Below are positions 8,291 through 32,907 of a DNA stretch of 64,000 nt, in pieces (the first letter of the stretch is position 1; each line of letters begins with the position of its first letter). The notes beneath the pieces are model-generated. The model was given only the letters and a program-made list of their open reading frames with translations. It had not been told where the DNA came from and ran no database searches. Origin of the DNA: Haplodiscus bocki (Eukaryota); the NCBI GenBank assembly GCA_965655095.1, contig OZ296648.1, positions 123,008,001 to 123,072,000 on the forward strand. Reading direction: 5' to 3'. The position numbers were made by a program, and so were the translations under genes.

Positions 8291-8934
8291 AAAACCTTCC
8301 AAATATGTGTCTCTTTTGTGAAAAAAACGGGTTCTTTGCGAAAAAGCTTGATTTTAATTCAAAATCTCTGAAGTTTGCAAATTTGCCGTAGATTGCATAA
8401 TAAAAGAATTGACTTCTCAAAAATATGTTCCGCCGTAAATTTGAGGCTTTTCAGCAAAAAATAAGTATACTTTGAAAGTGGGGAAAAAATGGAAAATTTG
8501 TTGAAGAAAGAGTGTTTTTTCGAGAAAATAATCGTTTTTGTCTTTAGAAAAGCCTTCCTTACAAAAACGGGAACACTTCAAATATGCCGCTGGTAGAAGG
8601 CCGTCTTGTTATTTAACAATTTAAGTGAAAAAAATGTCGCTTCTTCAAATCCAGTAGCTAAAAGGAACTTTAGTTCTTTCTTAAGATTGACGAAATTTTG
8701 CTTACAAAAAAAACAGATACAGTTAGTTGCGCTCAACTAAAAGAATTGAAGTCGTATATAGCTGAATGGAAACGTTTCCGTCAATTTGCAGGAGCGAAGT
8801 GCGAAGTGAGCTTCTCTCCGTACTTATCTATCTAGATAAAAGTGTTTTTAAACTGTCTGATTGGAAAAAAACCTAATTTTTTTAAAACCGACTCGATGGA
8901 TCGATGAGTGAGGTTCGCTCCACAAACGGTTCAA

Positions 8935-9750
8935 AGAAGCAACAACTTCATAGAGCACATGGATACTTATCTCCTGAAAGAGAGAAATATCACCAATATT
9001 CACAATGTTTTCCATATTGATAACAACTCGAGTATGGAATTAAAGTACCTATTAGACTGCAGGCCAACAAAAACAGAAAGTTCAAAAAACTTTGGTAGTT
9101 TTTGAAACGTTTAAAAGATTTAAAAGGAAACTTCTATCAAGAAAAAAGTAAAAAACACTCAAACAGGAAGAAAATTGATTGAAAATATCCCAATAGATTA
9201 AAAAGAAAAAGAATTTAGTTCAAAGTGATGACGGAAGAGAAAATCTAAACAAAACGGTCTACGATTTTATAGAGCTCAAAAGAATTGTGAGGTATCGTCG
9301 TTACACAACCAAACTTTTTTTGCTAATTGATTTACGAAAACCATTAAACATCTACTTAGTAAACTTTTTCCCGAAAAGAAAACATATTGGAGAGGTAAAA
9401 AAAACATAAAATATTATAACAAGACGGCGCATTCTTCAACTAAATTAACAACGATCCAAGAATCGGTGACAGACAGTGAACAAATAATTTAGAGTAGGAA
9501 GTAGAATAAAACAAAGGAAATTGTACTAAAATCTCTTCCGGGCTATTTATTTGGAACAGCAGAGAGACGTGATTTTCGCCCAAGGGTGATACAAGTTCTA
9601 TGATATAAAAAGAGTCGCACAATTTTCTGACGATACTATTCCAAATTATCGCCTAAGGTTTTCAACACACAGAATAAATGAAATTTTACGAAGAAGTATA
9701 AAATTAACAAAAAATTTAATAATGTCTTGACAAAACCCTAACCTACAAAT
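8935..9750 (+). pseudogene. Polinton-type retroviral-like (rve) integrase remnant
   Basis: NVFHIDNNSSMELKYLLDCRP (ORF 8908-9105), SDDGRE, YYNKTAHSSTKLT, KGDT and DDTIPNYRL occur in the order expected for Polinton integrases. Confidence 0.75.
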
Positions 9751-9829
9751 GTAAAAGCAATCGCTTAAAGAAACCTAATCAAAATTAACTCAGAAAGCAG
9801 AACAACAACTAAACTATCTATGCCACATG

Positions 9830-10901
9830 TCCTAAACGAACTAAGCTAGACTGGGCCTGAACATGAGATCAGGGGAACTTTCGACAACTTCTGGCATAGT
9901 CAGCGTCCATTCAGACAAGGCAACGTTTTGGCTGTTCTATTTTGTTGAAAAACCTTTGATTCCTATGGATGTCCTCCATCAAAAGGTTTATCCTGAAAAT
10001 GGAAAAAGCCATCAACAAAAGAATACGTTTTCTGAATAGAAGAACCAAAGAAAGGAAAACGTTTGCGGTAGCTCTTTTTTGTGCATGTTACGTCTTACAA
10101 AAGAATTGAAAACATAGTTTGAAAAACTGTGTATTGAATATGTACTTTAAAAAAAGGTTTAAAGAAGAACGTAAAAAGTAAAGGGGACAACAGTTTCTAA
10201 AACAGAACAAGATGAAAAAAAACCAAAAACCACCATTTTTAAGAACGAAATCGTAAATTCATTTTAAAGAATTTTGCTGATATCCATCCGGAGGACGGAT
10301 CAGTTCTTCGAAGCGATATCAGCCCATCAACTAGCGATAAAATTGAATTTGTTTTGGACTCTTCTTTTCATCTACTTCACATTACGAATCACCTCCAAGT
10401 AAGAATGAAGTGAATGTTTTTACCAATGCATTTAAGGAAGTCGCTTTCCTGGAAAGAAACGGATCATCGAGTACGCCACCGTTTCAATTGAACTGGATGA
10501 AAAACATCGAGAAAACAATTTTTACAACACCTCATGTAATAATTTTCGCTTCCATATGAATAAAATTTTTGTTTTTTTGGCTTTACTATAAAAAACGGTG
10601 CTGCTGGAAAGCATTCAGGTGGAAAACTTACTAAAACAGCATTCCAAAAAATTGATTGGAAAAAAGTTTTCCTGATGGATCTAATACGAAAGGCACTCAT
10701 GAGGTTATCCTTTTTCTCTTTAGCGTTACCTCTCCACTAGGTTCCAATAACTTTAAAGAACTTGCTTTAAACGTTTTACGAAAAGCAAACACAGAAACAC
10801 TTAGTGATATGGAGTTTTACCTGGAAGATGATGACCGAAAAGACGTTTTTTTTCCGAGAAGAATAATCGAAATTCACAGTGATGATGATAAAAAAGCATA
10901 A
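9830..10901 (+). pseudogene. Minor capsid (penton-like) protein remnant
   Basis: ORF 10656-10901 DGSNTKGTHEVILFLFSVTSPLG...LSDMEFYLEDDDRKDVFF resembles the recalled C-terminus of Polinton/adintovirus penton. Confidence 0.6.
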
Positions 10902-10989
10902 GAACACAAAAACTCATTTCTCAACTTTTGGATAGACCAATGTACTAACTAAATTAGAAAATTTAAGTGACTAATAATTAAACAATCAA

Positions 10990-11365
10990 AAATAAATATT
11001 GCGTTGGAGAAAAGCATTGACCACCAAGAATTGAAAATGCTCTTGGCTGGAATTTGAGAAAACTGCTGAGCAGATAGTTTTTATCAGTTGCGGTTGTGGT
11101 GTAGGCGAAAGCTAAGATAGTTCCATGTTATAGTGAAGCTAAGAGGCTTGCTTTTTCAAAATTGTTAGAAAAAGTGCGACCAAAAAAGCAATGAAGGTAG
11201 CCGTTATGGTTATGGTATAAAAAAATCTGAGTAGAGCATTGGAAAATGCCGCAGTTCTATCTACTGCTGCTGCAACTAGAAACCTTGAAGCTCAGGCAGC
11301 AGCTGCTCATTCTGTTATAAAAAATTTTTCAACAACGGAAATGTTTAGTCCCTGTGAAAATTAAA
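10990..11365 (+). pseudogene. Small adintovirus-type protein with amphipathic helix (adenovirus protein VI-like), remnant
   Basis: Reads ...RALENAAVLSTAAATRNLEAQAAAAHSVI. The homologue at 25020-25400 reads DAERFDFFANLGDSATK...GLLELATDITTAAANNN. Confidence 0.5.
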
Positions 11366-11399
11366 AAGATTACATTCAATTACTGTGCACAAAAACGGA

Positions 11400-12290
11400 T
11401 ACAATGAAAAAAAACCCTCTATAAATTTTTCAATAAAAAATCATGAAGTCCTTGAAAATTTGGGATACTTTGAAATGTCTAGGAGAACTGTCTGATCAGG
11501 AGTTGGGAGAAAGCTGAGTAAAACTTTTTTCATTTAGATTTTAAGGAAATGTTCGAGCCATCTATTTATTCATCAGCAGAAAAAAATTGAAGGTATGGTT
11601 AAATCAGTAACGAATGTCTTTGCAATATCGTGGGAAGTTTTTGGTGTCGGATTAGAAAAATCTGATGAAATAACCCAATTTCTGATGTTTTAACCTCTCT
11701 TTTCAATTCAAATACAGTGGACAGTAATTTTGCTGAAATTGTGGATGAACGTTTAACATTAAAAAAACTAAATTAATTTGTTTTAACTCATACTAATGAG
11801 AACAGATTTGAGGTCATTCCAAGTAACCGTCAGACATTTATAACAGGAAGATCAAACTAAAACTTCGATACAAGTTGTAATTACGATTTACGTGACCAAT
11901 TCTTGCTTACTTGTCATCTGAAATAACCTCTGCAAACGATATCAGCAAAGAATGTCTTTATTTTGGATTTTTCAACCACGCGGTTCATGATTTGAAGTTT
12001 GGTTATGAGAATTTGGACAGATAGTATACGATTAATGTGTTTTGAAAAAAAACGGAGAAAAAAAACAGTTCTGTGATTTACGGGAACGATTTTGAAGACG
12101 TGCTAGTCGTTCTCTTTTATTCTGATCCTTGAATTAGTCGTTAGGTTGCGTCTATCTACTAAATAGGGGGCACTAACAAAATCTTGGGTGAAATTTCTGA
12201 TCTTCTGAATACTCAAACGACAGTCGTTAATCGAAAACTTTTTGAGAAAGTTTGCTCACAAAAACCGCAACACATGCGACTGTTTGATTA
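11400..12290 (+). pseudogene. Conserved Polinton-associated ORF with DPxEL..RL motif, function unknown, remnant
   Basis: SDP-ELVVRLRL near 12120 (needs a frameshift). Homologous PADPSYLV near 26155. Confidence 0.4.
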
Positions 12291-12429
12291 TTTCGCCGCC
12301 TAACATCAGAAGTGGCACAGTAAAGCAAAGCAACTTTCGGGTTAATTCCAAGGAGTGATAATCTTTCGAAAATCGAGTTTTACACTATTAAAAAGTTTTG
12401 TTCATTTCTGTTTTCACTGCCATTGCAAA

Positions 12430-12980
12430 TGTATTCTTGGTTATCTAATCGACTAATCAAAAGAGAACCAATTTTTTTTCCATTTTTCTTCACATAATTT
12501 TTTCTTCTTCCTCTTCAGTCATGGAATCCGTGTACCTTGTTAAAAATTTCCGCACTGTCATAGCGGTTTGCTTGGAGTGAAAAACATCACTGTTATGTTT
12601 TATCAAATGTGGCAACTCAGAAAACGTAGTCATAGACAAGTTTCATCACGAACGTTTAGGCCTAACACAGGTGAAAAATAAGCGACATGTTTGCCAAGTT
12701 ATGGTCTGAGTTATCATCAAGTACAGAGGGCCAATGTTAGTTGTTGTCATTTTTGACTATTTCCTCTTCAGTATCATAATCAAGGTGTTGATTGGGAAAA
12801 CCAGCCAGAACTTCTTTTTCTTCTGTTTGGGTTATCAAACTCAATTGATAGAGTTTGATTCATCATAAGTCTTGTTTTACCAAAAAAGACGAACATTGGA
12901 AATCTGGTGATTCCTAAAAATCTCGCCCATGTTGATTTTTCGTTTCAAATTCACTTCGGGAAAACTTTCTGTTCAAAACT
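12430..12980 (-). pseudogene. A32/FtsK-HerA-type packaging ATPase remnant
   Basis: Walker-B-like VLDD followed by a decayed FTRGRH motif (FTCVRP) near 12660-12725. Colinear with 26420-26950. Confidence 0.55.
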
Positions 12981-13179
12981 CGCTTTGCGTTTTGTGTTTT
13001 TGTTTTTCAAGATCATTTAGGTTACCTTTATTATTAATTTTACCATAATCTAGAGGAGTCAATCTGCCGTTCATACATTATTTGTTTTAAATATGGGTTT
13101 TTTCTGCTAAATACGTAAAATCAAGAGCAAAAGTTGTTGTATAAGTTCAAATAAGTAGTCCTTTTGACTTATGAAAAAG

Positions 13180-14300: not shown

Positions 14301-14499
14301 AAAACTGGTTGGAAATTATCAAGAGTTTTGATAAGTGAAGTTCGAAAGACAAAAGTTGGGTTTTTATATTGAACCTTCTCACAACAAGGAAACTAACGTT
14401 ACAGTGAAAAATCAAAATAAAAAAAACATATGTTTTTTTTGGATTTTCTAGCAAATCTACAAAAGACGAGTAAACCTGTAAACGTCTGCCTGTTCTATT

Positions 14500-17400
14500 T
14501 TTACTTCTTCTAAAGTGTTCTGACATTTTTTTCTAAGAACCTGAACTGTATTTGTTTGAAGGAGTACTTGTCCTGAATTTTTTTCCTTTTTTTCTTTCAA
14601 AATCCTACTGTTCCTTTAGTAGTAATTTCACCACCACAATCAACTCTCGCTCGTTTTGGTGCTCAAGTTTGTCCAATTTCGGTCCGGCTGAAAGTTACTT
14701 TTGTAATTGTTGATCCCAAAATAAAGAGAATCAACTGTATTGAAGAATTTGTAGTTTTCTACGTACTGTATGATTCTTTAAAAATCCTAAGTTCTCATAT
14801 ATCTCATCTTCAAAGTATATTGAGGTTGTTTATTGAAATTTTGAAAGGAATAACGTGCTTTATTTCACAATTTGCAATCTCTTTCATCTCCTCAGAATCA
14901 GTATTGAGATTCAGGTTGACTTTTTATTCTTTTAATTTTCAAGTAATTTCATCATTTGTTAATTTCATTCCATGTTTAATGTCAATCATGTACGGTTTTT
15001 CTTATTTTCTTAGTCCTTGTTTGATATTTTTCAATGGGTAGTTCGGAATCAGGGACTGTTAAACAACGAAGAAACTCATGTGTTTTAATATCACCTCCAT
15101 GATTTTTCAAAAGATCTCCAGCATTAGAACCCCAAAACGGTTCACTTTTCCGATCGTTATCTGAAAAAAGTCAAATAGTCAAGTGTCATTTGAAAATTTT
15201 ATTATATACCTCTTGATTTCAAATGTGGATGAATATTTGCGAGTAGCGTCAATCGCAGAGTCGCGAGTGGCGTTGAATTTCTGGTGTATAATTTTCTGAA
15301 CAAGTTACTGTCTCAGAAAGTTTCAAAAGAATCTTCTTTGAGGGATCACTTGACTTGGGCTTTGAAAAAACAGTTACAAAATTCATCGAACCTTTTCCCG
15401 TTCTTTCCAGCTTTGTGTGTGCTAAATTCTGACAACTTCCATGGTTTTCCACGAAAATCTCAATCAATCTTGTGCGTAACAATTCTCCATGATGATCAAA
15501 CTTATTCATTAAGTTTTCTTTCGCTAGAAAAAATTGTCATACAAGAGTTTATCAAAAAAGGAACTTCCATTCTTTCCATAAAAACATCCACTTTTGAATT
15601 ATCACATACATTCTCCTTTTATTTTTTGCTCTCTTAGTTTGCCATCACTTGTTTCCCTCAAGTTCTCCAATTTTCTTTCGTGCAGTCTTTTTCGGCAGTT
15701 ACTGTAAAATGTCACCCGGCATCAACTTACAGACTTTCTTAAAAGCCGGCACCACCGTAAAAAATCTTTTCCTCTTTTATCTGGCAGTTTTAATCATTGG
15801 AATTCTTTCGTCAAACTTGGTAATGTATAGTCTTTTACAAATCTTTCATTGGATGCAAGGCGTTTTGCTGACTCCATTAGTATTTCACTCAATATGTTCT
15901 TGATATTGTTATCGGAGTAGTTTTGATCAAACGTTTTCTAGAAACTTGGTGTTATAGTTTTCAGAGGTTCACTGTGCGTCAAAGTGTCACGTTTTCCATG
16001 CGATTGGGTCAAGAGGCTGCTTTTGGAGTTTTTTGAAGATTCACGATTGCTTTGCGAATAATTTCTGTAGGAACGTTTTTTCTTAAATAGGCTCTCTTTC
16101 TTCATCTCAGTTCAACAACTTGCTTTCTGTTGAATCAGAAAAACTTATTTGGTTCGTGCGCCCTTTTTGCGGTAATTTTTTTAACTCAAAAAATTTGAAA
16201 AAATATATGACTTATTGTGTTGCAGCAAAACATTCCCATCTATATATGATGTTCAATGGATTGTTTCTGAAACAAAACAGTTATTCACTGAAACTTTAAA
16301 TTTAATTTTCTAAATGAGAAAAAATAATAGCTTTAGATACATACTAACTTGTTCATTTTTGTCATCTATAATGCCGTCAAAAATTTCATTACACTTTCGA
16401 AAAAGTTTGTTTTCAAGTTCATAAAAATTGGTGAAACTTTAAGTTTTAAAAACTATAAATTTTTAGGAACAAATCACTTTTTTTACCACACTTTGCAAAA
16501 ACTGGGTGCGTAAGTTTTTTCACAAAAAAAGATAGTCACTAAATTCAACATTTTTAACTCATTCAGGCCCTTGTACATTATGTTAAACAACTATATTTCA
16601 ATCTGAAAAAAAGGCAAAAAATAGAGAACTGTTTTGATTATAAATCTTACGTTAGATTTTGGCTAAAATATTTGACGGTTCCCTGACTGTTAAATGTCGC
16701 TTTATATGTCTATTCTGCCTAACTTCTGGATGAAAGACCCTAAATTGGCTTTACCGCCCAGAATGTTTTACAGAGTTGGCCACTAAGAGCCTGTTTTTCA
16801 TTTTTGTTGTTTTTAAAAACTTTTTTCTATAGATTTCACAAAGAGTTGTTCACAAATAAACAATCTGGTGAATTCCGTTTTTTCTGAAAACATTTCTCGC
16901 AAAAATTTTTGTTCTATACTTAGTGCTTCCAAACCTAAAATAGTTTATGTTGTAATTAGTTGCGGGTTTCTTTTTTCAGATCCCATTTCAAAAAACACTT
17001 CTGATTTACCTGCAGATTGAATTACTCAATTAAAAAGAAACTCGTAGTAAATATGCTTCACTCTTAGAACAACGTTTTTTTCGACAAAACTTTGCGACAA
17101 TCTTAAAAGAGACAAAGTTTATCGAAGTTTTATTTTAATTTTATCAAGATTTTATGTTTAAACTTCATTGGAGACATTCTCCGTTGTTTCCATACCTTTC
17201 TGTTCTACCTGACTTTACTTGAACTCCTGTTGGAGATTTTGCTTTTTCTGAAAAAATTGACTAATTCGTGTTTCTGAAAACTGTCCAGTTTAATAAAGAC
17301 TTCAGAACTATTCCATTCTGTTCCGTAAATTTGCTGAGCGTCTGGGTCAGGAGTCTCCTACAGTTACGGTGACCTTTTCATTCCTTAGATTACAAAGATT

Positions 17401-17750
17401 GCATTCAGTATCTCACCTGTTCCTGGTAAACGCAATACTTTTTTGTCTGTACTAAGTTGTTCTACTAAAACATTTACTACAAACATCGCAAAACTGAGAG
17501 TTCAGGCGATTTTCAAATAAGTTAGAAACCACGAGCTAAATTTCCAAAAACTGCTGTCGTCTTTATTTATGGTACAACACTTTATCAGAACTGATTACAA
17601 CTACAAAAGACAAATCAGTGCATTTTACAAATTTAAATTCATCCGCGTCCTCGTTTTTGATAACACGGGCAAAGCGCCGCCGATATGAGATCAGTTCTGC
17701 AAACAAAGGAAGTTTAAGGGTTATCACGCAATTTAGTTGTCTTCAAATGG
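14500..17750 (-). pseudogene. Protein-primed DNA polymerase B remnant
   Basis: Decayed motif A (~16010), motif B region (ORF 15249-15509 KILLKLSET), RYIIKFSND and GVLMLEIF*KIM (~15130-15200), and motif C-like VPDSELP (~15050), in the expected order. Confidence 0.55.
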
Positions 17751-17869
17751 TTTTTTTACTAATTTCTTGTCCAAACTCGATTTTGAGTTTTTCCTTGATC
17801 CTGTGGGGTGCAGATCAACAAACTTGAGGCCTATTTTGCAAAACACGAACAAGTGAGGGTAAACCACGC

Positions 17870-18420
17870 TTTTTACATGATTTTATAGGAGGAAAAAATT
17901 GTGAAAAGTTGAAGGTAGCGGAATATTTTATCTTTTGGGGTGATTGTTGCTGGTTGGGAAATAGTAGCGGAAATCCACAACTTCAAAGTGAGAGCTTTCA
18001 CGTTTCTGGTGGAGTTTTGAAAGGAGTATGGGAGTATGGAACCAAATTTGAAATCTCTACAATTTAACAAACTGACGTCAAAAGCCGATAATCGAAATTT
18101 CAATAATTTATGACTTCAAAACTTTGAAGTTTCTGCTGGATATTTGAAGGGCGGATAATCGAGACTTCCAGATATTCCAAAGCACAGCTTTAAAAAACAT
18201 TAGAGTAACAGCGGAAAATCGAGACTGAGGTTTTGATGAGTGAAAAAGCAAAAAAAAATGTTTTCATCTGAATGTCTTTCTTCAGTCGACTACTTTCATG
18301 GCTTCCTCACTCCGGTAGACAACTCCATTTAATTTTTTTGCCTTTTATGCAAAATTTCAATCAGACAACACAAGTTTCTGGGAAAAGCCAGGATGTGGAG
18401 CTATAAAATAGTAATTGTAT
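17870..18420. repeat. Unclassified interspersed repeat
   Basis: Homologous to 32010-32580 (e.g. tttccacgttt / tttcacgttt; cagataatcgaaa / ccgataatcgaaa). No recognisable coding content. Confidence 0.55.
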
Positions 18421-18429
18421 TTTTCAAAA

Positions 18430-19600
18430 TCTAACTGGGCTCGAAATTGAGTGAAGTCTCTGGTGTTTGAGAAACTGTTGTAGATTTGTTGGTATTGCTG
18501 TCAAATTTTGTAGAGTTTTTCTTTAATTCAGCCCCTTTCAGTGTTTCTATTGTTGATCCCAAGACCATCAACGTGTGGTGAGGGGAATTCTTTTCTTTGA
18601 AGACATTATTTGAAGGCTTCGAAAAACAATTAGGCATTAGTTCGATTTTCTACTGCTCTTCCCAAATCTGATATTTTCGGTCAATGAGTATTCAAACAGC
18701 CACCCTTCTGAATTTTTAGTCTTGCGGATTTTATTTGTATCAATAGTTTACTGCCATTGTAATTTTTTGCCTTCACAGTCATGTGTATATTAGATGTCGT
18801 CGGCTCGATAAAAAATTTAATTTTTTAAGAGATTTAACCCTGCTTCAAACTGTATGAGGACACTGCCCATTGCGTTTTAAAAAGATTTTGGTTTTGCTAG
18901 AATGTGTCAGATCTTTTCTTGAAGATTTTGTCAGTCTTCTCAAATCATAACTGATTGGCTCCATCGAAATCATACAATTTGCGGATTTAAGGTTTAACTG
19001 AAGAGGAGCAACTATATTAGGTTCCATTAAAATTGCACACTAACAAGCTCAATTTACTTTCTCGGCTGGTTTGGTTTTTTACTGTATGTTCTTTTTCATG
19101 CAATGCATCGCCAGTTCAAAATCAGACCCGGCGCATGATGGTAACTTCGGATCAAATGACCGTAAGTGGTTGCACTTTCTTCTGCTCTTAGTTGTCTTGT
19201 CATCAAATGAATTCCAAGTAACAACAGATACTGATTTCCACTGGAGACATTCTATTTTTTGGAGTTTATCCAAATGTTGATCTCTGACGACCACGATTGG
19301 TTTGAATGATATCTTTTGTTCGTCCAGCTTTTGAGAGAAAATGCGAAACATGATATTTGTTATGTCTGTGAAGAGAAATCGTAGGTCCACATAATCATAA
19401 CAGAAGCACATGAAACGAAATGTATCACACTCAATGCATCGGGTTATGATGCTTAGATTACTTTCAACTAGCTGCAGATTACCAAAGATACAATACCTAC
19501 ACAAGGTTTGACTTCTGTGATAGTGTTTTCTCGATTCTGAAAAACTAAAGTTGAAAACGGAAAACGGCACTATGAAAAACCAATTTCCGGCAAGAATCAC
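18430..19600 (-). mobile_element. Fragment of the env-bearing Gypsy family: env 3' end, LTR and ORF1 5' end
   Basis: Colinear homology to 32590-33650. The part 18430-19039 also matches 59400-60028. Confidence 0.7.
18758..19039 (-). repeat. Gypsy LTR (~280 bp)
   Basis: TGTAATTTT...AAAATTGCACA termini. Followed on the minus strand by TGGCAG (PBS-like). Homologous to 32908-33179 and 59758-60028. Confidence 0.6.
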
Positions 19601-19619
19601 TTACTGCGATCCCAAAGAA

Positions 19620-21440
19620 AAATAGGAAGACATGGAGTACAGGAAGAATTTTGAAAACAAAAAAGGAACAAGGGAAAATGCATGGAGATAGTTGGGATGA
19701 TTAAAAAAAATCAAATGGAACTATGTACAAAAATGATTGCCTTGCGTCTATCTTCTATTTGCACAAAACACTCGAAGATATGTAAATAAAATTGGGTTTG
19801 GAGTATATGATTAATTATCTCTACTTTCCCTAGGATAGAACATTTCCAAATATAACAAGATGGAATTGTCAGATAAGATCGGGACGGAGCTATCGACACA
19901 TATACTGAAAAATTCTGACAATTCCTTACTGAGTATACGATCTGGTGATTTGGGAAATTTTACTCAATATAAAAAAACGAAACTTCAAAACAAGTAGCTG
20001 AGATCATTCAAAAAGAACTAAGTTTTGTCGTCGGAGAAAAATGTGATATCAAAAGAAAATTCTCCGAAACATTCAAAACAATAGCAGAAGAAAAAAAGGA
20101 ATGTGAAAATAAATTTGTTGGCAACTGCTACAACTCAAAATTTGAAATTGAAATGTAAATTAACAAAAAACGATCGGAATCAACCATTGAGGAAAACTAA
20201 AAAGAGTGAATCGTGACGACTTTCTATTGGCAATTGACGCTGTTTTCCAGTATTCTTCAGCAGTGGTTGAGTTATATTCAATGCAACCTACAACTGAAAT
20301 TAATTCTCTTCACACGAATGAAATGATGGTTTAGTTGGTGAGAATATTTGATAGCGAAACGTTTGCAGTTGAAAATGACTCGAATGTAACTTCTCAGTCG
20401 GGAATACCTGAAACAGTTTACTATTACCCAGAAAATACTTCAGTACAACTTGTATCTGTTGAGGGTGAAACTGAAAGAAAGAGGGGAAGAGATTAAAAAG
20501 ATAAGCATAATCGATACCATAAAAATCAGTTTTTGTCCAAAAGATTGTGAGGAATGGTGGAACAGTAGTGGTGACCTATGAAAAACTTTTTGAATAGAAA
20601 ATCTCAAGGCTCTACTTTTTAGGTTTGCAAAAAAGTTGTTCCCTCTTTGAAAAAAAAGGTGGAAAGAAAAACTAGAAAAACTGATAAAAAAAACTTACGA
20701 AACGTTTGTTTGATCAAAAGTTTACGATAGATATAGACATCAAGCATGAACAAAAAAAAGATTGGATAAGAGAAGATCATGGTGAAATGCTTTAGAAATA
20801 ATTGAAATTGGGAATTGGAGGCTGTTTTGCAAAACTTGAAAGAGGCGATAGAACTGATGATGAAAAAACTTCAAAAAACGAAAGAATGCCTTCAAATCAA
20901 GGAGCCGTTGAAAAAGCAAAAGAAGAACAATTATTGAATTTTGTGAAAATTGTGATGGCTGGATGCAAAATTAACAGTACTTTACTACAAAAGTTCAGAT
21001 TTCTTTCATTGATGTCAAACTTTCGGATCAATTAAAGGAGGCAGAACAGGATACGTAGGGGAAGTTCTAGGACAAAAAAACTATGATTCAGAAGTTTGTG
21101 ATATTCTAAAAGCTTTGTTTTCAACGACTTTATTTTGAAGACTGTCTAATGGTTGTTTTGCATGGAAGTATGGACGAAAAAAACAACCGAAGATTTGTAA
21201 GAGGTTGCCAAAGTACTGTTTAGAGAACATGTTTTGACTTGCAATGTGGACTATTAAAAACAAAAAATAACATAAAATTGGAAAAAACTACTTTCAAGCG
21301 GAGTTGTCAAACCATTAAAAGCAGGACTTTGTAAAGATTGTGCCCTTTTTCTTGCGAAATCATGTGATGAAAACAGATATGAAAAGTTGTAAACTGGAGA
21401 AATTCAAGGTTAAAAGAAAGAAATGAGAACCACCAGAAAA
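19620..21440 (+). pseudogene. Protein-primed DNA polymerase B remnant (plus strand, C-terminal part best supported)
   Basis: ORF 20802-21035 KLGIGGCFAKLERGDRTDDEKTSKNERMPSNQGAV..QLLNFVK, then GYVGEVLGQKNYD and WKKLLSSGVVKPLKAGLCKDC. This follows the recalled pPolB tail and matches 850-1385. The 5' limit is uncertain. Confidence 0.6.
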
Positions 21441-21464
21441 ATGTCATCCAGTACTTTTTTAGTT

Positions 21465-22195
21465 AACAAACTGTTCAACAAAAATGTTGCCTCCTTAATT
21501 TTTTTTAAAGGTTGAAGAAAAATTGTCTCTACCTAAAAAGATAAGTGTGAACTCAACTGACGGAGATTAAATCACGTTTACCTGAATAGAAACTTTTCCA
21601 TCAAGTGGCGGAAGCGAAGTGAGTTTCCTTCAGTACTTATCACTCTAGATGAAATTATCTTCAAACTGTCTGAATGATTGAAAAAAATTAATATGGTTGA
21701 AACGAACTTGGTAGTTCGGAGAGTGACGTTCGCTCCGCGATAGGTTCAAAGAAGCAACATTTTCTTAAGAGAAAACTTTGCCAATCTCCAGAAATACAAT
21801 TACAGTAACAACACCTACAATGTTTCTTATATTGATGACAACTCGAGTATGGAATTAATATACCTAATAGACTACGGACCAACAAAAACAAAGGTTTAAA
21901 AAACATTGATAGTTTTTGATAACTTTATTTGATTGCCAAGCAAAAATCTGTGAAACGAAACACTCAATGAAGAAGGAATTTCATCGAAAAACTCCTTACT
22001 TCATTGAAAAAAAAACAGAAATTAAATGAAAATGATGATAGAAGACAAAATGTAAAAAAACGATCAACGATTTTGTGGAGCTCAAGAAAATTCCAAGATA
22101 CCGTCGTTACACAACCAAGGGAGCTGTTTTTGCTGAATGGTATAAAAAAAGCCTTTAAACATCCTTTGGATAAAAAATTGCCGATATTGAAAAAG
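21465..22195 (+). pseudogene. Third, truncated copy of the Polinton intergenic region plus integrase 5' half
   Basis: DNA homology to 8612-9350 (gcgaagtgag, tattgatgacaactcgagtatggaattaa, cgtcgttacacaaccaa). Confidence 0.75.
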
Positions 22196-22528
22196 TGAGA
22201 TTTCTCGATACGTTCGAACTTCGGGTCTTTTTTTTGGAAAAAGACTTGGGTTCTTCGAAGAAGTTTGAATTTTGTTCAAGTCATCTGAAGCTTGCAACTT
22301 TGCTGTAGAATGCGTCATAAATTGTTTTTATTCTCAAAAATGTCTTCGACATTATTTAAAGGTTTTTTTTACAAAAAAGCAGGAAAATTTGACGTGAGGA
22401 AAGTTAGAAAATATGATGAAGAAAGCGTGCTTTCTCCAGAAGAAAAACTAGTTTTAATGTTTTCCAAAGCCTATTTTACAAAAAAGAACAGGCGCAAAAT
22501 GTGTTGGTGGTTGCCGGCCGTCTTTTTG
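22195..22528 (+). mobile_element. 3' end of the Helitron-like repeat
   Basis: Homologous to 8300-8608. Ends ggtggttgccggccgtctttttg. Confidence 0.5.
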
Positions 22529-22839
22529 TTTAATCAATTGACGGAGAAAAAATTCGCTCCTTCAAAACCAGTCGCCAAAGGGGACCTCAGTATTCTCTTA
22601 GGGTTGTTGAAAACTTGTATACAACTAAATAAAGAAATTTTACTCAACTAAAACAGATGAAAATGTTTTTAAATAAATAGAAGCATTTCTAACGTTCCAC
22701 TGAAACGAACTGAGCTTTCTTTGGTATTGGTATATCTAAATGAAACTTTTTTCAAACTGTCAGATTGACTAAAAAAGCTTCGGCAAAACGAACTCGGTGG
22801 CTTTGAAAGCTGCGTTTGCTCTGCTCTGGCATCGAAAAG

Positions 22840-23680
22840 GCAAGGTTTCTGAAAATAAGAGTCATTCTAACCCTCCGAAACACAAAACTGTTACCGAATA
22901 AAACGTTGTTAAATATTTTGATGACACCTGGAATTCAGATTTGTTGCATCTAGGGACCTAGTAGACTACAGCTCAAAAAAATCAGGGTTGAAAAAATTGT
23001 ATGTTAGTATCCGACTTTTCAAAAAAATTGGCGGAAACGTTTTATCAAAAATTTCAAAGATTAAACAACCAAACAAGAAAAGAGTTATTCGAAAAGATCC
23101 TTACTTCCTCAAAAAGGAAACATTTTTTTGTTGACGGCGAATATGAAAGAAATGTGAGAACAAAACGTTCAACGATTCTGTGGAGCTGAAAAAGTTAAGA
23201 GATAGAGTCTTTAAACATCCTAGACAGCCCTGTTGTTGCTGAATGACTATTGGAAACCATTGGTATTCTACATAAAAAACAACTTTTAAAAAAAAACGTT
23301 GTAAGTCGATAGACGAGGTCAATCCAGAAAAAATCCAAAAACATTACAGTAAAATCTTTAGCCAAATTAACATCAATCTAAATAACTGTGAAAATAGAAG
23401 TAACAACACGTTTACAAAAAAAGTTAGATGAAACGAAGAAAGAAGGTACCGAAGTTTCAATTGAACCGTTTATTCAGGACTGCAGACATACGAAATGTTT
23501 TCTCAAGGCTGATGCGAGAAGCTAGAGCTACCATTTTTATTTCATTACACAATGTTTTGTTTATACTATTCCAAACTATCGGCTATTTTTTTCTGCAGAC
23601 AAAAACTGAGGTTTTGCGAAGGAGGACAGAACTAACAAAGAAAACATTAACGTCATGAAAAAACTTAGCCGAAAATCGTA
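22840..23680 (+). pseudogene. Polinton-type integrase remnant
   Basis: ORF 23001-23189 (LVSDFSK..QTRKELFEKILTSSKRK) and ORF 23428-23658 (KRRKKVPKFQLNRLFRTADIRNVFS..LRRRTELT). Confidence 0.78.
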
Positions 23681-23754
23681 AAAGCAATCGTTTCTGGAAA
23701 ATTCTTTAAAAAACTCTCTAACACTCACAATTGTAACTAATAACAAAAGTTACA

Positions 23755-24900: not shown

Positions 24901-25019
24901 AAACTCAAAAACAAACTACCATAGTTATTCAAACAGAAAACAATGTGAATACTTTTGTATTAAAGTTTTTGCTTTAACTGGTTCATATAATGTAAACCAC
25001 TAGTCAAGACAAACTCAAA

Positions 25020-25400
25020 AGTGATTCTTTTTGCTTTAGAGGAAAGCAATAATCACCAAGAAATGAAATTGTTTCCGGCGCAACAACTGAAAAACCTGAC
25101 GAAAAAATTCTGTTTTTCAGTGGTGATTGTACTGTAGGCAAAAACTAAGATAATTTCAGATCATACAGGTGACGCTGAAAGATTTGATTTTTTCGCAAAT
25201 TTGGGAGACAGTGCGACTAAACAGCGAAGAACCTAGCCAATATGTTAAAAACAGCTAAAGTTCCCAGCGGACTGTTAGAATTGGCCACAGATATAACAAC
25301 TGCTGCTGCGAATAATAACTCTGAAGGTCAGGTTGCAACTCCTCCTTCTGTTGTAAATAACTGCATCATCGAAAAGCAATAATCCTCGGGAAATAGGATC
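25020..25400 (+). pseudogene. Protein VI-like amphipathic-helix protein remnant
   Basis: DAERFDFFANLGDSATK...PSGLLELATDITTAAANNNSEGQVATPPSVVN. Confidence 0.5.
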
Positions 25401-26419
25401 ATTTTAAACATTTATAGTGTACAAAATTAGAAAGATTTAAAAAACACTCTCTGTGAAAAATCCGTTACAAAAACAGGAAGACCTTGAAAAATTGACAGAA
25501 ATCAGAAGTCCAGCAAAAACTATCCGATCCGAAATTCAAAAGACGTGAGTGAAATCTTTCATACTGATGATCAAAAAGTGATCAAAACATCTATTTATCA
25601 GCAGAAGGAATCAAATGTGAAAATGGTAAAATCAAAAACAATTAGAGTTGAAATTTTAGGGGACGGCATTCGTCAAGGTTTGAGAAACTATGATGAAAAA
25701 ACCCAGAACTTTTGAAACTTTAGCTGACTTTGTCAACCTGATTTTGTCAGTGGACAGCAGTTTTGTGGAAACTGTGGAAGAACTTTTGACGTTAAGCAAA
25801 TGTAAGTTAATTTGGGTTAGTTCCTTTGGTTGAGAACAGATTTGAGATAAATGCAATTAACCCTCGAAAGGTTCTAAGATGAGGATCAAGTTGATTTCTG
25901 ATGATGGTGACAGCTATGATTTACTTCATCCACTTCTACCTCACTTTCTATCGGGGAAAACGTTTGCTAAAGATATGAACAAAGAGAGTGTATTTTTTAA
26001 ATTTTGTATGGTCGCGACCTGGGGTCTGTTTTTTGTTATAAAATTCGGACAGATATCATAACAATGGAGTGTTTCGAAGAAACACGGAGAATGAGAGCAG
26101 TTTTTTGAATTACAGGAAAGAATTTAGAAAAATATGAAACTCGTCTTCACTCCTGCTGATCCTAGTTATTTAGTCGCGGGCACTGAAAAAATGGGGTGTA
26201 AAGACTCGAATATTCTGATGCTGAGATTGCAGCCATAGTTTTTACATTTTCAGAATGAGATTGTTTTGAAAAAAGACCAACACCAGCGATTGCTCCGCAG
26301 CATCAATTCGAAAAAAAATGCCACAGTAGCGCAGACAAAATATCCTTTCGCTCCGAAGAAGAGATAATCTTTCTCAAAAGGGTCAATTAAAGTTTCTAAA
26401 ATTTTTTTTTGTGCTTTCG

Positions 26420-26950
26420 TTGCAATGCATTAATACTCTTCACCAACTAAACGACTAATCAAAAGAGAACTGATTTTTCTTCCCAGAATTTTTGACATGC
26501 ACATGTCTTTTTCTCGGCACTCATCAAATCCGGCTACATCATTAGGAAAATTCTGCATAATGTTAGCAGTGTGCTTAGAACAAGAAACCTGACTGTTATT
26601 TTTATCAAGAGTGGCACCCCAAAGACGTAGTGATAAAGAAGTTACATCACGAATGTAGATGCCTAACACGGGTGAAAAAAGGCGATATGTTTTTCAGGTT
26701 ATGGTCTACTTATCATCAAGTGCCAACATGCAATCTTGATTTTTCTCATTTTTGAATAATTCGTCTTTATATCATTATCAAGGTTCTGAATGGCAGCTCC
26801 AGTGAAAACTTCTTTTTTCTTCTATTTGGTTTGTTGAACTCACATGATAGATTTGAATTGATCACAAGACTTTTTCTGCCAAAGAAGCGGGCATTGAATG
26901 TCAAGTCAATCTCAAGAGTCTCATTTCTGTTGATTTTTCGATTAACATTC
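26420..26950 (-). pseudogene. Packaging ATPase remnant
   Basis: Decayed Walker A (LTFNARFFGRKSLV), Walker-B-like MLALDD, then NISPFFTRVRH, and NDVAGFD in ORF 26430-26669. Confidence 0.65.
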
Positions 26951-27199
26951 ATTTCGTGAAGGTTTCCGGTACTCGCTTTCTGAATTGCGTTCTCGTTTTG
27001 CAATATCGCCTAGGTTATAGTTATTGACGGATTCTCAGCAGCCTCCAGTTGCCACTCTGCCTTTCAGACAACTTTTACCTCTAATATGACCTTCTTCATT
27101 GGATAAAGAATATCACAATCAAGGTTTTTTTACATTCTGAACATTTTTTCATTTTGAATCAAGAAAAAGAATATGGTCGCGATCAGAAATAATGTTTTA

Positions 27200-28330
27200 C
27201 AGATTTTGAATATTCATAGTGCTAAAGCTAGACACTTATTAAGATCGAAACGAACCGCACTCTAAACATCAAACGCAGTAACTGGTTGAGCTCCCATATG
27301 TTTGCTTTGATTATTGTAATCAAACACAGAAAAGCTTTATATACTCTTGAAGGAAATCGAGTCTTTGATTAGCTAGTATACCCTATGTGCAGAGTGTATG
27401 AAAAAAAATTCTTCTCTCCATAAAATGCTCCGTGAGAGGTAATCATTAGCTAATGAAATGAAACAAAGTTACCAAGATGTGGATCTTATCCCGGTCTACA
27501 AGTATCTGTTGATACAGTTATCCAATATAAATTATAGTCGTCGGTTGTTCTTAAATCAATTTTTTCATGATGCAGAAACCGTATCGAAACGCAGGGTGGG
27601 AAACTGTTCGGCTTTTTATGCCTAAATCGAAAATCCAATTACCACTAACATTTAGTCTTTTGCCAAAAATAGTACGTTCTCCGTATAATACGTGTTGGAG
27701 ATCTTGATAGCTTTTGATCTTCAGAAAGTTGATCTGCTTCAAGACGTGTTATAAAACTTTCAAAGCAGCAGGAAATTTCTTGGAAACTTACATCTGCTGC
27801 TGCTGCAGTTCCTAAAATGACAACGTTGATACCGTTAAGTTTTGAAGTAGTTTGATATCTTAATTCAAATGTTAATTTGGTCAGCAGAACCAAAGACATT
27901 AGAAAATCGTTATTTTTTATGAAACGTTCCTCTATGGTTTGTTTCTTTTTTTTCGATAATTCTTTAATTCTTTTTCGCATATCTTTTTCAAATTGCTTTT
28001 GAAGCATGTATAGCAGCAGTTGATGTCATAAGTTTGTCCCTTAAAGATACCGGATGAAATTTTCAATTTTCTCAAGAAAGTTATTGAAAGCGGTGGCACG
28101 TTTTTGCTTCGCTATGAAAAAAACCACCGGAGCAAACATACCTAGGAAAGATCATGACCGTTAGCAAAAAACGTGGAAGCAGCATCATTTTCTGATACTG
28201 AAAATTCGAGAAAAATATAACTACTCTGTGGGTAGATGTCCCTCCAGGCAAAAAATTTGTTTCATTGCTACTGTTTCGGTTATTTATTGTGGCCAAAATT
28301 AGTTTGAGAACATCAAAAAAGACTGATTTG
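27200..28330 (-). pseudogene. Major capsid protein remnant
   Basis: QKLSRSPT and YGERTIFGKRLNVSGNWIFDLG (ORFs 27645-28007 and 27551-27742), plus SVFDYNNQSKHMGAQPV near 27300. These resemble the recalled adintovirus MCP (ILSKTPTEL.YVERSVF.K.V...NLW.FELG; YVFDIRYQ....SQPI). Confidence 0.65.
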
Positions 28331-28499
28331 TCAAGCTCGCTGCAAAGATTTTTGCTTTTTTTTCAAATAAATTTCCTTTTTCAATACGAGAATTTTCTTG
28401 TTTTTTGAAAAAACAGAAAAAAAGTTTAATATCTCCCCTTGTGCTTATTTTAAAATTCAGACACAGCAGTGAACGACTCCTAGCCTACTTGATATGTTT

Positions 28500-31400
28500 T
28501 GGCAACTTCTTGTTTGTTCTGAAACATCTTTTTTAAAATGAAGTGCATTATTTCAAAGGCGTAAGTTTTTCTAAAACTTATTTCTCTTTCCTTCGAATTT
28601 CAAATGCCGTTTTAAAAGTAATTGCTACATTGCAACAACTCCTGCTGTTATTGGTACTATACTGTGTTCAAATCCGGTTAGATTAGGTGTTACTGATGTA
28701 CCTGTCGATTCGATAAAAAAGAAAGTGAGTTGTGCTCATAAAGATATCTACTTTTAGTGTAGTTCTTCAAATTTCTTAATTTCACCTTCATTTTAAATTC
28801 AAAGCGGATTAATTTTGTTCATTGAATTTTCGAAACCAAAAACTTCAGTTACTTTCGAATTACAAATTCCACCTCTTTTGAGAATCAGTCTCAAAAACCT
28901 GGTTAACTGTTTCACTCATTTAATCTTCCAGTAATTTCAATTTTTTTGAAACTCTTTCTGTGTTCTTCGTCAACTTATGCATTTCCTCTCCAGCTTTTTG
29001 CATTTTGTTTGACCCTTGTTTGCTATTTTTCCCGGGTTTTGACAATGAAGAACTGACAAAAAACGAACATATTCTCGTGTTTTAATTTCCTAAGCATGCT
29101 TTTTCAAAGGATGTTCATCATTTAAATTTAATGAACGTTCGGAAACTCGATTTTTAGTTAGAAAACAATCAATTCTTCCATTCTAAATAACAATTTTCTT
29201 ATAACCCTCTCGGTTTCATAAATGGACCAAGATTGGTCTGTAGCGTTGTCGACAGAACCGCGACTGGCGCTGGTATCTGGTTTTAGCTACAGATATGTTA
29301 CTGTCGCAGCAATGTTTATTAAAATAACATCTTCGTCGGAATACTCGAGACTCGTTGTAAAAAAATTCAATTTAGAATAATTTATTTTCATCTTTTTCCA
29401 TTTTTTTCTGCTTTGTATGCGCTAACTTCGGTCGACTTTTTTGGTTTTTTTTCAAACCCTCAATCAATCTTGTTTGTAACGTTTCTTCTGTATAAACAAA
29501 CGTCGGCTGAATTATAATTATAGCTTTCTCCTTGATACGAAACATTTTTCTCGCCCAAATTTCCTGATGCAACTTCCATTCTTTGAATAGGAGAATGCAC
29601 TTTTTATTTATCTTATAACTCTTCCAACGTTTTCTGCTCTCGCTTCTGGCATTCATTTTCCCTCATAGTCTCTATTCTTCTTTTTTATTTAGTCTTTTTT
29701 AGCAGAAAATTTTCCAGTAGTAGCTGGCATTACATTTAAAGCGTTCCTGATGGCTGACACTATTGATGAGGAATCTTCTCCCATTTAAGCATCTGTTATT
29801 AAAAATTGAAAATTGTAATCTTTCAAAGTTGGTATTGTGTCTTCTTCTACCAACTTATCAACGGATGCACAGACTAATGCTGACTCCAAAAGTAAATAAA
29901 ATATTAGATTTCTGTTGATAAATTTATCTGAGTAGTACCGGTCAAAGATTTTCAAGAACTTCGGGGTAGAGTTTTTAGAGATCCATTGTACGTCGACGGG
30001 CCACTTTTTACTTATTATTGGTCCCAAAAAGCTTTGGGAGTTCTTCAAAAAATCACTTTTGCTTTGCTAGTAGTTTTTCTAAAACTATGTGTACTACTTA
30101 GGTTGACCATATTCCTAACCTTTCAAAAACTCTTTCTCTTTTGAATCAGGCCAACTCATTTCTTTCACTGTTCCTTTTCGCGGTAATTTAGAATTATTTG
30201 CCTGTAGTTCAAAATCCATGATATTTTATCCGTTCCATTCTGCCGTAGCAAGAAATTACTATCTAGATAAGATGCTTTGTGGAATATTTAGGAACGAAAA
30301 TTGAAATTCGATTGAACTTTCAACAATATAAAAGAGAAAAACTGTTTTTAGCTACCAATTTTCGAAATATTTTTCATTTATAATGTTGTCATAGGTTTCA
30401 ATACAAATTTGAAGTATGTTTGTTTTAATGTTAACCTAAAACAATGAATTTTTAAATTTTTGCAAAGTTCGAAACTAATGCACAAAATCACATTTTTTTC
30501 CTTAAAATGCAATTATTGCATGGGTAATTTTTATACAAACAAGCAACAAAAAGTCATAAAAATTAGAAGTGAAATTTTTAACTCCTTGAGAATCATGCAC
30601 AGTATGTAAGACGATTATTTTTCAATCAAAAGCAAAGAAAAAACGGAGTTTTGATTTAGATCAATCTTACATTTCATAATGGTTTATTACAAATGACGGT
30701 TTTTTGACTGGTTCATATCACCGTAAACGTCTACGCAGCTTCGATTCTTGATAAAACACCCCAAATGGGTCAGTAAAGTTTTGACCTTCAAATTTCTTGT
30801 ATCTTATAATAATTCCCGTGATTTTAGAAAGATTGAAAACAATCTTTTGGGTTCCATATAAGATATGAACAAATCGGGCAATACTTTTCAATTCTATACT
30901 TACTTCACTTAAAGTAGATCTGATGAAAATTAGGTTTTTTTGCAGTTTCTCATTTTTCAGTTCCCAATCCAAAAAAAACTTTTGTTTTAAATGCGGAGTG
31001 ATTTCGTCAATTTAAAAAATTTGCCACGAAAGTCTTCCACCCTATGGTCAACGTGTTTTTCGATAATACTGTTTTTTTCGTCAAACTGTTGAACAAATTT
31101 TTTATCAAAGTTTAGGCTTAAAATAACCAGGTTGTAAGTTACACTTTAATGGAAAAAGTAAAAGGGTTTTTTTTGTTTTCAAAGCTTTCCTTTACAGAAG
31201 AGTTTTTTGCGAACTTCTTGGATTTGCTGCTTTTTTGAAAAAATTTGCCTAAATTATATTTCTGCGGATCATTTAGTTCAAAAAAGAAATCAATATTACC
31301 CCTGACCGTTCTTTAAAAAGGCTGACCATCTGGGTCAAGCGTCTCGTACAGTTACGGTAATTTATCCTACTTTAGATTACATACGTTTTATTCAATTTTT

Positions 31401-31750
31401 TTCACCAACTTATAACAAAAATAACACTTTTTGTGTGACTAATAAGTTGTGTTACTGAAACATTCACTCCAAACAACGCAAAATTGACTGTCTATGAGAC
31501 TTTCAATTAGTTTGCCAACCCCCAGCAAATTTCTCAATCACTGCATGTCAAACTATTTGCGATACACTGTTTCACAAAAACTCATTACAACTACAAATAC
31601 ATACACAATTCACTGTTCAAAATCAACCTCATCCACTTCTTCGTCCTCGATCATACGGGCAAGGGGTCCAGGAGATAGGTAAACACTTTTGCAAAGCAGA
31701 TGAAAGAGGCGTAAATCACGCATTTTAGCTGACTTCATAAGAGAGTTTTT
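28500..31750 (-). pseudogene. Protein-primed DNA polymerase B remnant
   Basis: Colinear DNA homology with 14500-17750. ORF fragments 29372-29656, 29785-30048 and 30718-30972 fall at the matching positions. Confidence 0.55.
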
Positions 31751-32009
31751 CTTGTAGTTTTTTTGTTTGGACTCGATTTCTACTTTTCTAAATTTTTTTG
31801 CGAGGAGAGGGCTCAGCGGATATAAGTCAACTATCGCAAATCAGTAAACATAGGCCTATATTGCAAAATATAGCCAATTTATTATGACAATGTTTTTTTT
31901 TGTTGTGGCTTAATTTGTACGCTTTTGCTTGATTCTGCGGGTTGCGGGCCAGTGGATTTTGAACCAATTTTGAAAAAACTAGTAATTGTAAGGCTGAATC
32001 ATGCATTTT

Positions 32010-32580: not shown

Positions 32581-32907
32581 ACAATTACAAACTTCACTTG
32601 AAACCTAGTGAATTGCCGAATTTTCCAGAAATTGTTGTGGAGTTGTTACTACCACTGTAAAAATTTGGATGTGTTTTCCTTCAATTCAGTTTTTGAGTAA
32701 GTCTTTTTTTAACCTAAAGACTTCAATGCGTGGTGGAAGAAACAATGTTCTTTGAAGAAGTTGTTTGGAGACTTCAAACAACAATAAAGCAACGGTCTGA
32801 TTTTCTACTGCCCTTCTCAAATGCTCATTCGATGAGTATTCAAAAAACAACTTTTTGAAAAACTTTTGTCACGCGTGAGTTCCTGTTAATAACTTACTTA
32901 CTGCCAA

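What the first reader, a model, noticed from the sequence alone, without database searches (positions are those of the whole stretch)
8612..31760. Fossil Polinton/adintovirus-like proviruses with a near-complete virion module, hidden below the ORF threshold
Seen: two colinear ~9-kb blocks of apparently ORF-less DNA. Their fragmentary translations give, in the same order, integrase(+), penton-like(+), protein-VI-like(+), DPxEL ORF(+), packaging ATPase(-), major capsid(-) and pPolB(-). Known: rve integrase + pPolB + A32 ATPase + jelly-roll capsids define Polintons/adintoviruses. Inference: these are old germline integrations of a capsid-encoding dsDNA virus lineage, and a consensus could be rebuilt from the copies. 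I found no adenain protease and no TIR.
Basis: partly seen in the sequence, partly recalled or inferred. Interest (0 to 1): 0.72.

Follow-up and report, generated by a model that had tools for sequence, protein, structure and literature searches.

The report
Dead Polinton provirus, duplicated in tandem
The two decayed blocks are the remains of a virus-like Polinton element with broken capsid, packaging, protease and integrase genes; most likely one old insertion was later copied in tandem with its neighbouring DNA, an ordinary fossil in an animal genome crowded with such elements.

Summary
The two colinear blocks are real (about 63% identical) and are decayed Polinton/Maverick DNA. Profiles place integrase, penton-like, VI-like and DPxEL ORFs (+), and ATPase and major capsid (-), in both; a homologous open capsid ORF folds as a double jelly roll. 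Three first-reader claims fail. The 'pPolB(-)' stretch holds small ORFs (V, W, Y) that follow the capsid gene in 19 of 20 relatives; the polymerase is on + upstream of the integrase. A protease remnant exists (9782-10126). TIRs exist: the left one, starting AGTAGT, lies 6 kb before the window. The blocks are probably one insertion, not two: they share 1.4 kb of flank beyond the right TIR, join at 19389-19403 in mid-polymerase, differ equally at all codon positions and are sisters in a tree. The genome has thousands of Polinton candidates and at least three gene layouts, two with open ORFs; this lineage was broken in all 20 relatives seen. Fossil Mavericks are well known. The scan noted other Polintons in this genome before (e1-8580207, e1-9853099), not this locus. 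Interest is low.

The parts
723..1357 (+). 3' end of the pPolB gene of element A. Its 5' part and the left TIR (starting AGTAGTAGT) lie 2.3-6.0 kb before the window (locus L070:4037-7681).
   Evidence: tblastn E 2.9e-8; 63-73% to 20816-21441; L070 profile hits and TIR match
1578..8610 (.). Later insertions splitting element A between pPolB and integrase: A-rich simple repeat, an LTR element (LTRs 2287-2563 and 6691-6967, rve at 4916-5323) and a dispersed repeat R (8284-8610)
8941..9790 (+). rve integrase, block A, broken
   Evidence: 33 bits; 28.5 bits with an independent profile; family hits PF00665
9782..10126 (+). adenain-like cysteine protease remnant, frameshifted, catalytic motif decayed
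   Evidence: 31.2 bits, E 1.5e-8; tblastn E 5.6e-8; alignment; one homologue hits Peptidase_C5 at E 6.5e-4, below cut-off
10576..10893 (+). penton-like ORF remnant (family membership shown; penton label not confirmed by Pfam or PDB)
   Evidence: no outside hit
   Evidence: 37.6 bits; 25 bits
11498..11902 (+). conserved 'DPxEL' ORF remnant
   Evidence: 37.6 bits; 35.6 bits
12388..12961 (-). A32-like packaging ATPase remnant
   Evidence: 14.5 bits, E 1e-3; tblastn E 2e-6; 58-66% DNA identity to the ATPase region of relatives; family hits PF04665
13252..14256 (-). double jelly-roll major capsid remnant
   Evidence: 43 bits, E 2e-12; open homologue hits PF21738 at E 6.8e-11 and folds like PBCV-1, iridovirus and virophage capsids
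14444..14872 (-). ORF V (about 177 aa in open copies, hydrophobic C-terminal half); mistaken for pPolB
   Evidence: 50.5 bits
14918..15509 (-). ORF W, unknown function; mistaken for pPolB
   Evidence: 36.7 and 27.2 bits
15650..15877 (-). ORF Y remnant (start placed by DNA alignment; lower bound approximate)
   Evidence: B copy scores 48 bits
15900..17638 (.). right subterminal region, shared only by blocks A and B
   Evidence: no match in 20 relatives; genome search of 16000-18500 found only the twin and one 100-base hit
17639..17974 (.). right terminal inverted repeat of element A (end probably near 18030)
   Evidence: 62.6% over 345 columns to L070:4087-4426, inverted; alignment
17975..19389 (.). 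flank outside the element, including a piece of an unrelated dispersed repeat (18499-19389); also present after block B
19389..19403 (.). junction of the tandem duplication: flank repeat joined to mid-pPolB
   Evidence: bridged by contigs of both runs laid, two samples of one study
19403..21441 (+). pPolB of block B, lacking its 5' part, broken
   Evidence: 38.6 bits, E 3e-11; 62% to L070:5602-6622
21495..22163 (+). extra local copy of the integrase 5' part and the spacer before it
22175..22530 (.). repeat R, at the same place as in block A
22842..23690 (+). rve integrase, block B, broken
   Evidence: 62.6 bits
24066..24248 (+). small conserved ORF U
   Evidence: 35.1 bits
24580..24896 (+). 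penton-like remnant, block B
   Evidence: 25.5 bits
24999..25358 (+). VI-like small ORF, block B
   Evidence: 36.8 bits
25536..25980 (+). DPxEL ORF, block B
26394..26890 (-). packaging ATPase remnant, block B
   Evidence: 12.9 bits; DNA matches to relatives
27262..28362 (-). major capsid remnant, block B
   Evidence: 36.5 bits, E 2e-10
28532..29889 (-). ORFs V, W, Y, block B
   Evidence: 44, 53 and 30 bits; Y 48 bits
31801..32112 (.). right TIR copy in block B (B has no left TIR)
   Evidence: 63.9% to L070:4086-4399, inverted
32113..33509 (.). duplicated flank; the dispersed repeat runs on to about 34985

Best explanation
The region holds broken genes of a Polinton/Maverick element in two colinear blocks, most likely from one ancient germline insertion that was later duplicated in tandem together with its flank and then decayed neutrally. 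SHOWN: the layout is left TIR - pPolB(+) - integrase(+) - protease(+) - U - penton-like(+) - VI-like(+) - DPxEL(+) / ATPase(-) - major capsid(-) - V - W - Y(-) - right TIR; the left end lies 6 kb before the window; about 7 kb of other repeats sit between polymerase and integrase. INFERRED FROM THE FAMILY: the living element copied its linear DNA by protein-primed replication from the TIRs, integrated with its rve integrase and packaged DNA into a double jelly-roll capsid with the A32-like ATPase and protease. INFERRED HERE: an unequal exchange or replication slip copied about 14 kb, from mid-pPolB to 1.4 kb beyond the right TIR, giving block B. B never was a whole element. Neither block can now make any of these proteins.
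For: Gene order by profile hits against a decoy. MCP followed by V and W on the same strand in 19 of 20 relatives; pPolB, where found (10 of 20), always on the integrase side. Left TIR with the (AGT)2 end motif (motif in PMC8097293 section 7). A and B share flank beyond the TIR, with an unrelated repeat at the same place, at the same identity as the genes (62-64%). Sharp junction 19389-19403, bridged in both runs laid. A-B differences are flat over codon positions (0.334/0.339/0.326, p 0.88; 0.347/0.355/0.348, p 0.94), while comparisons with relatives show third-position excess (pooled 0.382/0.385/0.416 and 0.388/0.379/0.446). A and B are sisters among 21 rows, 100/100.
Against: No target-site duplication could be read and the right terminal motif is decayed. 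The integrase 5' part of A is closer to B's extra copy (70.4%) than B's two copies are to each other (61.7%) or A is to B over 8284-9784 (62.5%); one simple event does not explain this. A and B are long branches with a base make-up unlike the rest, which can pull them together. Several single relatives also show a flat codon pattern against A or B. Protease was found in A only, U in B only, and the ATPase hits are weak. Pfam alone sees none of 12 window pieces; identities rest on a chain through other copies.
Confidence: 0.85

Rival explanations
1. Two independent or head-to-tail integrations of near-identical viral genomes; the second lost its left end later.
For: Flat codon-position divergence and sister grouping also follow from two near-identical genomes inserted at one time. 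The odd affinity of the integrase 5' copies hints at more than one event.
Against: 1.4 kb beyond the right TIR is shared, including a piece of a repeat found elsewhere without Polinton genes. Block B starts in mid-pPolB with no TIR. Repeat R sits at the same place in both.
Confidence: 0.1
2. One reading: each block ends in a pPolB gene on the minus strand after the capsid gene.
For: Motif-like pieces resembling polymerase motifs occur there. In vertebrate Mavericks pPolB and ATPase share one strand (PMC8097293 section 7).
Against: 0 hits from 40 queries there, hits elsewhere on +. The motif-like pieces align to ORFs V and Y of relatives.
Confidence: 0.01
3. One or both blocks were kept by the host for a function (captured gene, small-RNA source).
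For: The junction region is near-identical in a second sample.
Against: No open frame; no codon-position signal between A and B; flank and genes diverged alike.
Confidence: 0.03
4. Assembly artefact (one element assembled twice).
For: None.
Against: The blocks differ at about 35% of sites. One contig spans 17000-23500 in one run, which may be the source; a second sample bridges the junction.
Confidence: 0.01

Closest known systems
Mavericks/Polintons, 'genomic fossils' of Barreat and Katzourakis (PMC8097293; passages and section 7 read)
   Same: pPolB, rve integrase, ATPase, major capsid, protease, a minor-capsid-like ORF, two gene modules on opposite strands facing inwards, TIR of a few hundred bases, 5'-(AGT)2 end. 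That paper finds most elements degraded.
   Different: Gene order differs: here pPolB, integrase, protease and penton-like ORF are on one strand, ATPase and major capsid on the other. No target-site duplication readable. Block B is a partial duplicate.
Adintoviruses (Starrett et al., PMC8502044; passages read)
   Same: Integrase, pPolB, hexon-like capsid, adenain-like protease and packaging ATPase in an animal genome; degraded germline copies; mixing of polymerase and virion modules, seen here as different polymerase orientations and types among relatives.
   Different: Alpha/Beta class, the OTU domain and the accessory genes (PLA2X, GasderminX, Cupiennin) were not tested.
Open-ORF Polintons of the same genome (layouts I and III here)
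   Same: Layout III has homologues of protease, penton-like (two), VI-like, V, Y, Z, ATPase, DPxEL, MCP and INT; its MCP is 41-46% identical to a relative of the window's lineage.
   Different: Layouts I and III keep the virion genes on one strand and have open frames. Layout I often carries a poxvirus RPO18-like gene, not found in the window or its 20 relatives.
Polintoviruses of stony corals (PMC11131425; passages read)
   Same: Many integrated regions per genome with MCP, mCP, ATPase, PolB, integrase; gene gain and loss; poxvirus-like accessory genes reported.
   Different: The host here was not identified; no tree with coral elements was made.

Membership tests
Polinton/Maverick | protein-primed family B polymerase | tested here: met
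19791-20981(+) 38.6 bits and 723-1357(+); profile seed hits PF03175 at E 1.7e-22.
Polinton/Maverick | rve integrase | tested here: met
   33 and 63 bits; family hits PF00665
Polinton/Maverick | A32-like packaging ATPase | tested here: met
   weak protein hits (E 1e-3, 3e-3), DNA identity to relatives; family hits PF04665
Polinton/Maverick | double jelly-roll major capsid | tested here: met
   window 43 and 37 bits to the family profile; a natural open 417-aa homologue hits PF21738, models at pLDDT 76.9, pTM 0.82 and matches PBCV-1, iridovirus, Sputnik, mavirus capsids at E 1e-14 to 1e-12. The window's own copies were not folded.
Polinton/Maverick | single jelly-roll minor capsid (penton) | tested here: inconclusive
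   conserved ORF family present in both blocks; no Pfam or PDB hit; not folded
Polinton/Maverick | adenain-like cysteine protease | tested here: met
   block A 31.2 bits; open homologues keep the His-Asp-Gln-Cys pattern (pattern recalled); Peptidase_C5 only below cut-off; not detected in B
Polinton/Maverick | terminal inverted repeats with (AGT)2 or (AG)3 ends | tested here: met
   62.6% over 345 columns; left end AGTAGTAGT; right-end motif decayed
Polinton/Maverick | 6-bp target-site duplication | tested here: inconclusive
   right end too decayed to place
Polinton/Maverick (intact class) | open, intronless core ORFs | tested here: not met
   longest stop-free runs 40-126 aa: a fossil
Adintovirus Alpha/Beta | OTU-PolB class and class-specific accessory genes | not tested
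   no reference set fetched

The most novel reading that the evidence does not exclude
The locus records an extinct early wave of a Polinton clade whose genes start at a TAAATG motif of poxvirus-promoter type. The motif precedes 25 of 30 readable starts in this dead lineage and 59 of 65 in a second, open-ORF layout, so these elements would have relied on the transcription machinery of an unseen poxvirus-like helper through several invasion waves, long before one lineage picked up an RPO18-like gene.
Probability: 0.3. Interest if true: 0.6.

Novelty: new member of a known kind. Interest (0 to 1): 0.25.

Why it matters
By itself little: decayed Mavericks are the usual state (PMC8097293) and this genome has thousands of candidates. 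The locus is a useful relative clock: its TIRs are more diverged (63%) than those of any of the 10 relatives with readable TIRs (68-95%), so it is among the oldest copies seen. It fixes a third gene order and shows that the TAAATG start motif noted earlier for a younger lineage is older and more general. It is also a caution: motif-like pieces in decayed DNA gave a false polymerase, and a tandem duplicate looked like a second integration.

Tried and rejected
Polymerase ORFs of the ten best PF03175 loci did not hit the window's polymerase; they are another type. Profiles from layout I alone found only the integrase. A capsid query in a shifted frame found only itself and one weak hit; the right frame gave 7 matches. 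Pfam on 12 read-through pieces: no relevant hit. hhalign of one capsid piece against a shallow layout-I alignment: probability 0.2%. First fold, 18 close rows: pLDDT 39.5, not used. PDB sequence searches with capsid and penton-like alignments: nothing significant. Global-alignment identities were dropped because its random control reached 59-66%; BLAST values are quoted instead. A search for shorter penton-like homologues gave only unnamed fragments. ORFs V and VI-like remain without an Atlas look-up. No RNA holder listed: expression and small RNAs untested. Pooled TAA-ATG counting on broken copies was uninformative (16 of 173; window 0 of 16), so starts were read gene by gene. PMC6451197 (passages; Mavericks 4.5% of an acoel genome) was read as a guess at the host; the host was not identified. 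Paper searches for Polinton plus RPO18 or RNA polymerase subunit (passages of 10.1101/2024.03.23.586382) and Maverick plus tandem duplication showed no matching report; supplements were not read.
Full report
OBSERVATION. Self-comparison shows two colinear blocks about 14 kb apart: 8284-9784 vs 22200-23711, 10509-16748 vs 24522-30769, 16858-17791 vs 30837-31787 and 17789-19370 vs 31923-33509, all at 62-64% identity. In 8612-31760 the longest stop-to-stop frame is 173 aa. The window lies on the largest contig of a 1.5-Gb genome. An IFT46 frame at 61541-62488 shows a ciliated eukaryote; that it is an animal is inferred, in line with the element family and the scan's earlier notes.

THE GENOME IS FULL OF POLINTONS. 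PF03175 gave 98 matches (10,956 candidates, 91 scored), PF04665 150 matches (5,172 candidates, 150 scored), a capsid query 150 matches (10,549 candidates, 150 scored). Three layouts were seen. Layout I has ATPase, DPxEL ORF, penton-like ORF, capsid, protease and integrase on one strand, with open frames. Layout III also keeps its virion genes on one strand, has two penton-like ORFs and open 416-417-aa capsid frames. Layout II is the window's. Twenty loci picked by similarity to the window or to one relative were fetched; none showed a full-length capsid frame (longest 312 aa). That sample is biased towards decayed copies.

GENE MAP. Profiles from natural ORFs and ORF pieces were run on the six frames with stops as X; the best reversed-decoy hit was E 0.11. 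Block A: INT+ 9004-9715, PRO+ 9815-10017, penton-like+ 10576-10893, DPxEL+ 11681-11902, ATPase- 12388-12835, MCP- 13252-14256, V- 14537-14872, W- 14918-15509. Block B: pPolB+ 19791-20981, partial INT+ 21756-22155, INT+ 22878-23582, U+ 24066-24236, penton-like+ 24580-24896, DPxEL+ 25675-25980, ATPase- 26394-26828, MCP- 27262-28362, V-, W-, Y- 28532-29880. The VI-like ORF scores 37.6 and 27.5 bits. Profiles from layout III alone repeat INT, penton-like, VI-like, MCP and V in both blocks, Y in B and the protease in A (31.2 bits, E 1.5e-8); they gave no ATPase hit; best decoy E 0.014. Among the 20 relatives, MCP is followed by V and W in 19 and a protease is seen in 15. pPolB is seen in 10, always on the integrase side: 7 divergent from it, 3 on the same strand as in the window.

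THE 'pPolB(-)' IS NOT A POLYMERASE. Forty long ORF queries, most of them pPolB, gave no tblastn hit at E 0.05 in 14300-19400 or 28400-33500, but hit 19400-21500(+), 724-1263(+) and the 10 kb before the window. The motif-like pieces there align to ORF V and ORF Y of relatives.

CAPSID. A natural open 417-aa homologue hits PF21738 (E 6.8e-11). With 85 rows it models at pLDDT 76.9, pTM 0.82; Foldseek returns PBCV-1, Singapore grouper iridovirus, Sputnik and mavirus capsids (E 2e-14 to 2e-12). The link to the window is a chain: window pieces 26-27% to these ORFs by tblastn (E 2e-5 to 5e-4) and 43 bits to the family profile. The penton label has no outside support.

ENDS. The 10 kb before the window (L070) carry the rest of A's polymerase (4868-7681) and an inverted copy (4086-4426) of 17639-17974 and 31801-32112. 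Just outside it stands AGTAGTAGT at L070:4037, the 5'-(AGT)2 end of PMC8097293 (section 7). Element A thus spans about 24 kb, with about 7 kb of later repeats at 1578-8610. Ten of the 20 relatives show long inverted repeats at 68-95% identity, several starting AGTAGT or AGCAG; the window's pair is at 63%.

ONE INSERTION, DUPLICATED. (1) A and B share 1.4 kb beyond the right TIR, including a piece of a dispersed repeat found elsewhere without Polinton genes. (2) That repeat stops at 19389 and the match to A's polymerase starts at 19403, in mid-gene; B has no left TIR. (3) Both runs laid bridge the junction; they are two samples of one study and one may be the source. (4) A-B mismatches are flat over codon positions (about 595 sites each, p 0.88; about 725 each, p 0.94); against relatives the third position is in excess (pooled ratios 1.08 and 1.16), though some single relatives are flat too. 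(5) In a tree of the W-V-MCP DNA (19 of 20 relatives; one left out for lacking V and W) A and B are sisters at 100/100 with end branches of 0.31 and 0.32; the program warns of their base make-up. TIR divergence and A-B divergence are alike, so the duplication was probably not much later than the insertion; 345 columns cannot resolve this. Unexplained: the integrase 5' part of A is closer to B's extra copy.

START MOTIF. In layout I, 68 of 129 long ORFs start at TAA-ATG against 136 of 1804 short ones; in layout III 59 of 65 labelled genes. In layout II relatives, counted by hand: Y 10 of 10, V 7 of 8, W 5 of 6, VI-like 3 of 6; six pattern matches at non-orthologous places and the unspecific protease pattern were dropped; background 237 of 4095. 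In the window 1 of 3 well-placed starts keeps it (V in B, 28919). Some cases are stop-start overlaps. That TAAATG is a poxvirus promoter motif is recalled, and no transcript was tested.

COMPARISON AND VERDICT. Six of the eight Polinton features tested are met; penton fold and target-site duplication are inconclusive; open frames are absent. PMC8097293 (passages, section 7) and PMC8502044 (passages) describe such degraded germline copies as common. Interest 0.25.

Noticed in passing
L025:8139-8570, L019:7538-7990 (layout I elements elsewhere in the genome): ORF of about 145 aa hitting Pox_RNA_pol PF03293 (E 8e-20, 1e-16), 239 homologous clusters; absent from the window, its 20 relatives and 6 layout III elements. 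Already noted by the scan (e1-8580207).
   Followed up: partly
L107-L118 (six layout III elements): Two penton-like paralogues (about 356 and 364 aa) side by side; polymerase type and orientation vary among otherwise similar elements.
   Followed up: partly
window 37151-55782: About three tandem units of 6.6 kb at 86-89% identity: a younger tandem duplication next to the old one. Its ORFs have no Pfam hit.
   Followed up: partly
window 2287-6967: LTR element (277-bp LTRs, 82% identical, rve at 4916-5323) inside an A-rich simple repeat within element A.
   Followed up: partly
window 8284-8610, 22175-22530, 63833-63961: Dispersed repeat R with an AAAAACCC-like tail in A; also near several unrelated loci. 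Type unknown.
   Followed up: no
window 18499-19389, 32659-34985, 59501-60027: Pieces of a dispersed repeat whose ORFs look like a retrotransposon envelope gene (label recalled; no Pfam hit).
   Followed up: partly
window 61541-62488 (-): Host IFT46 in one 314-aa frame (PF12317, E 1e-79).
   Followed up: no
L053-L054-L096, L072-L073, L074-L075: TIRs 91-95% identical (one 2.2 kb long) around broken genes; conversion between TIRs may make them look young.
   Followed up: no
G000 C3 12.227-12.245 Mb: Five short matches to the ORF W region spaced 4-5 kb apart, suggesting another tandem array.
   Followed up: no
window 21495-22163: Extra copy of the integrase 5' part, closer to block A (70%) than to its neighbour in B (62%).
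   Followed up: partly
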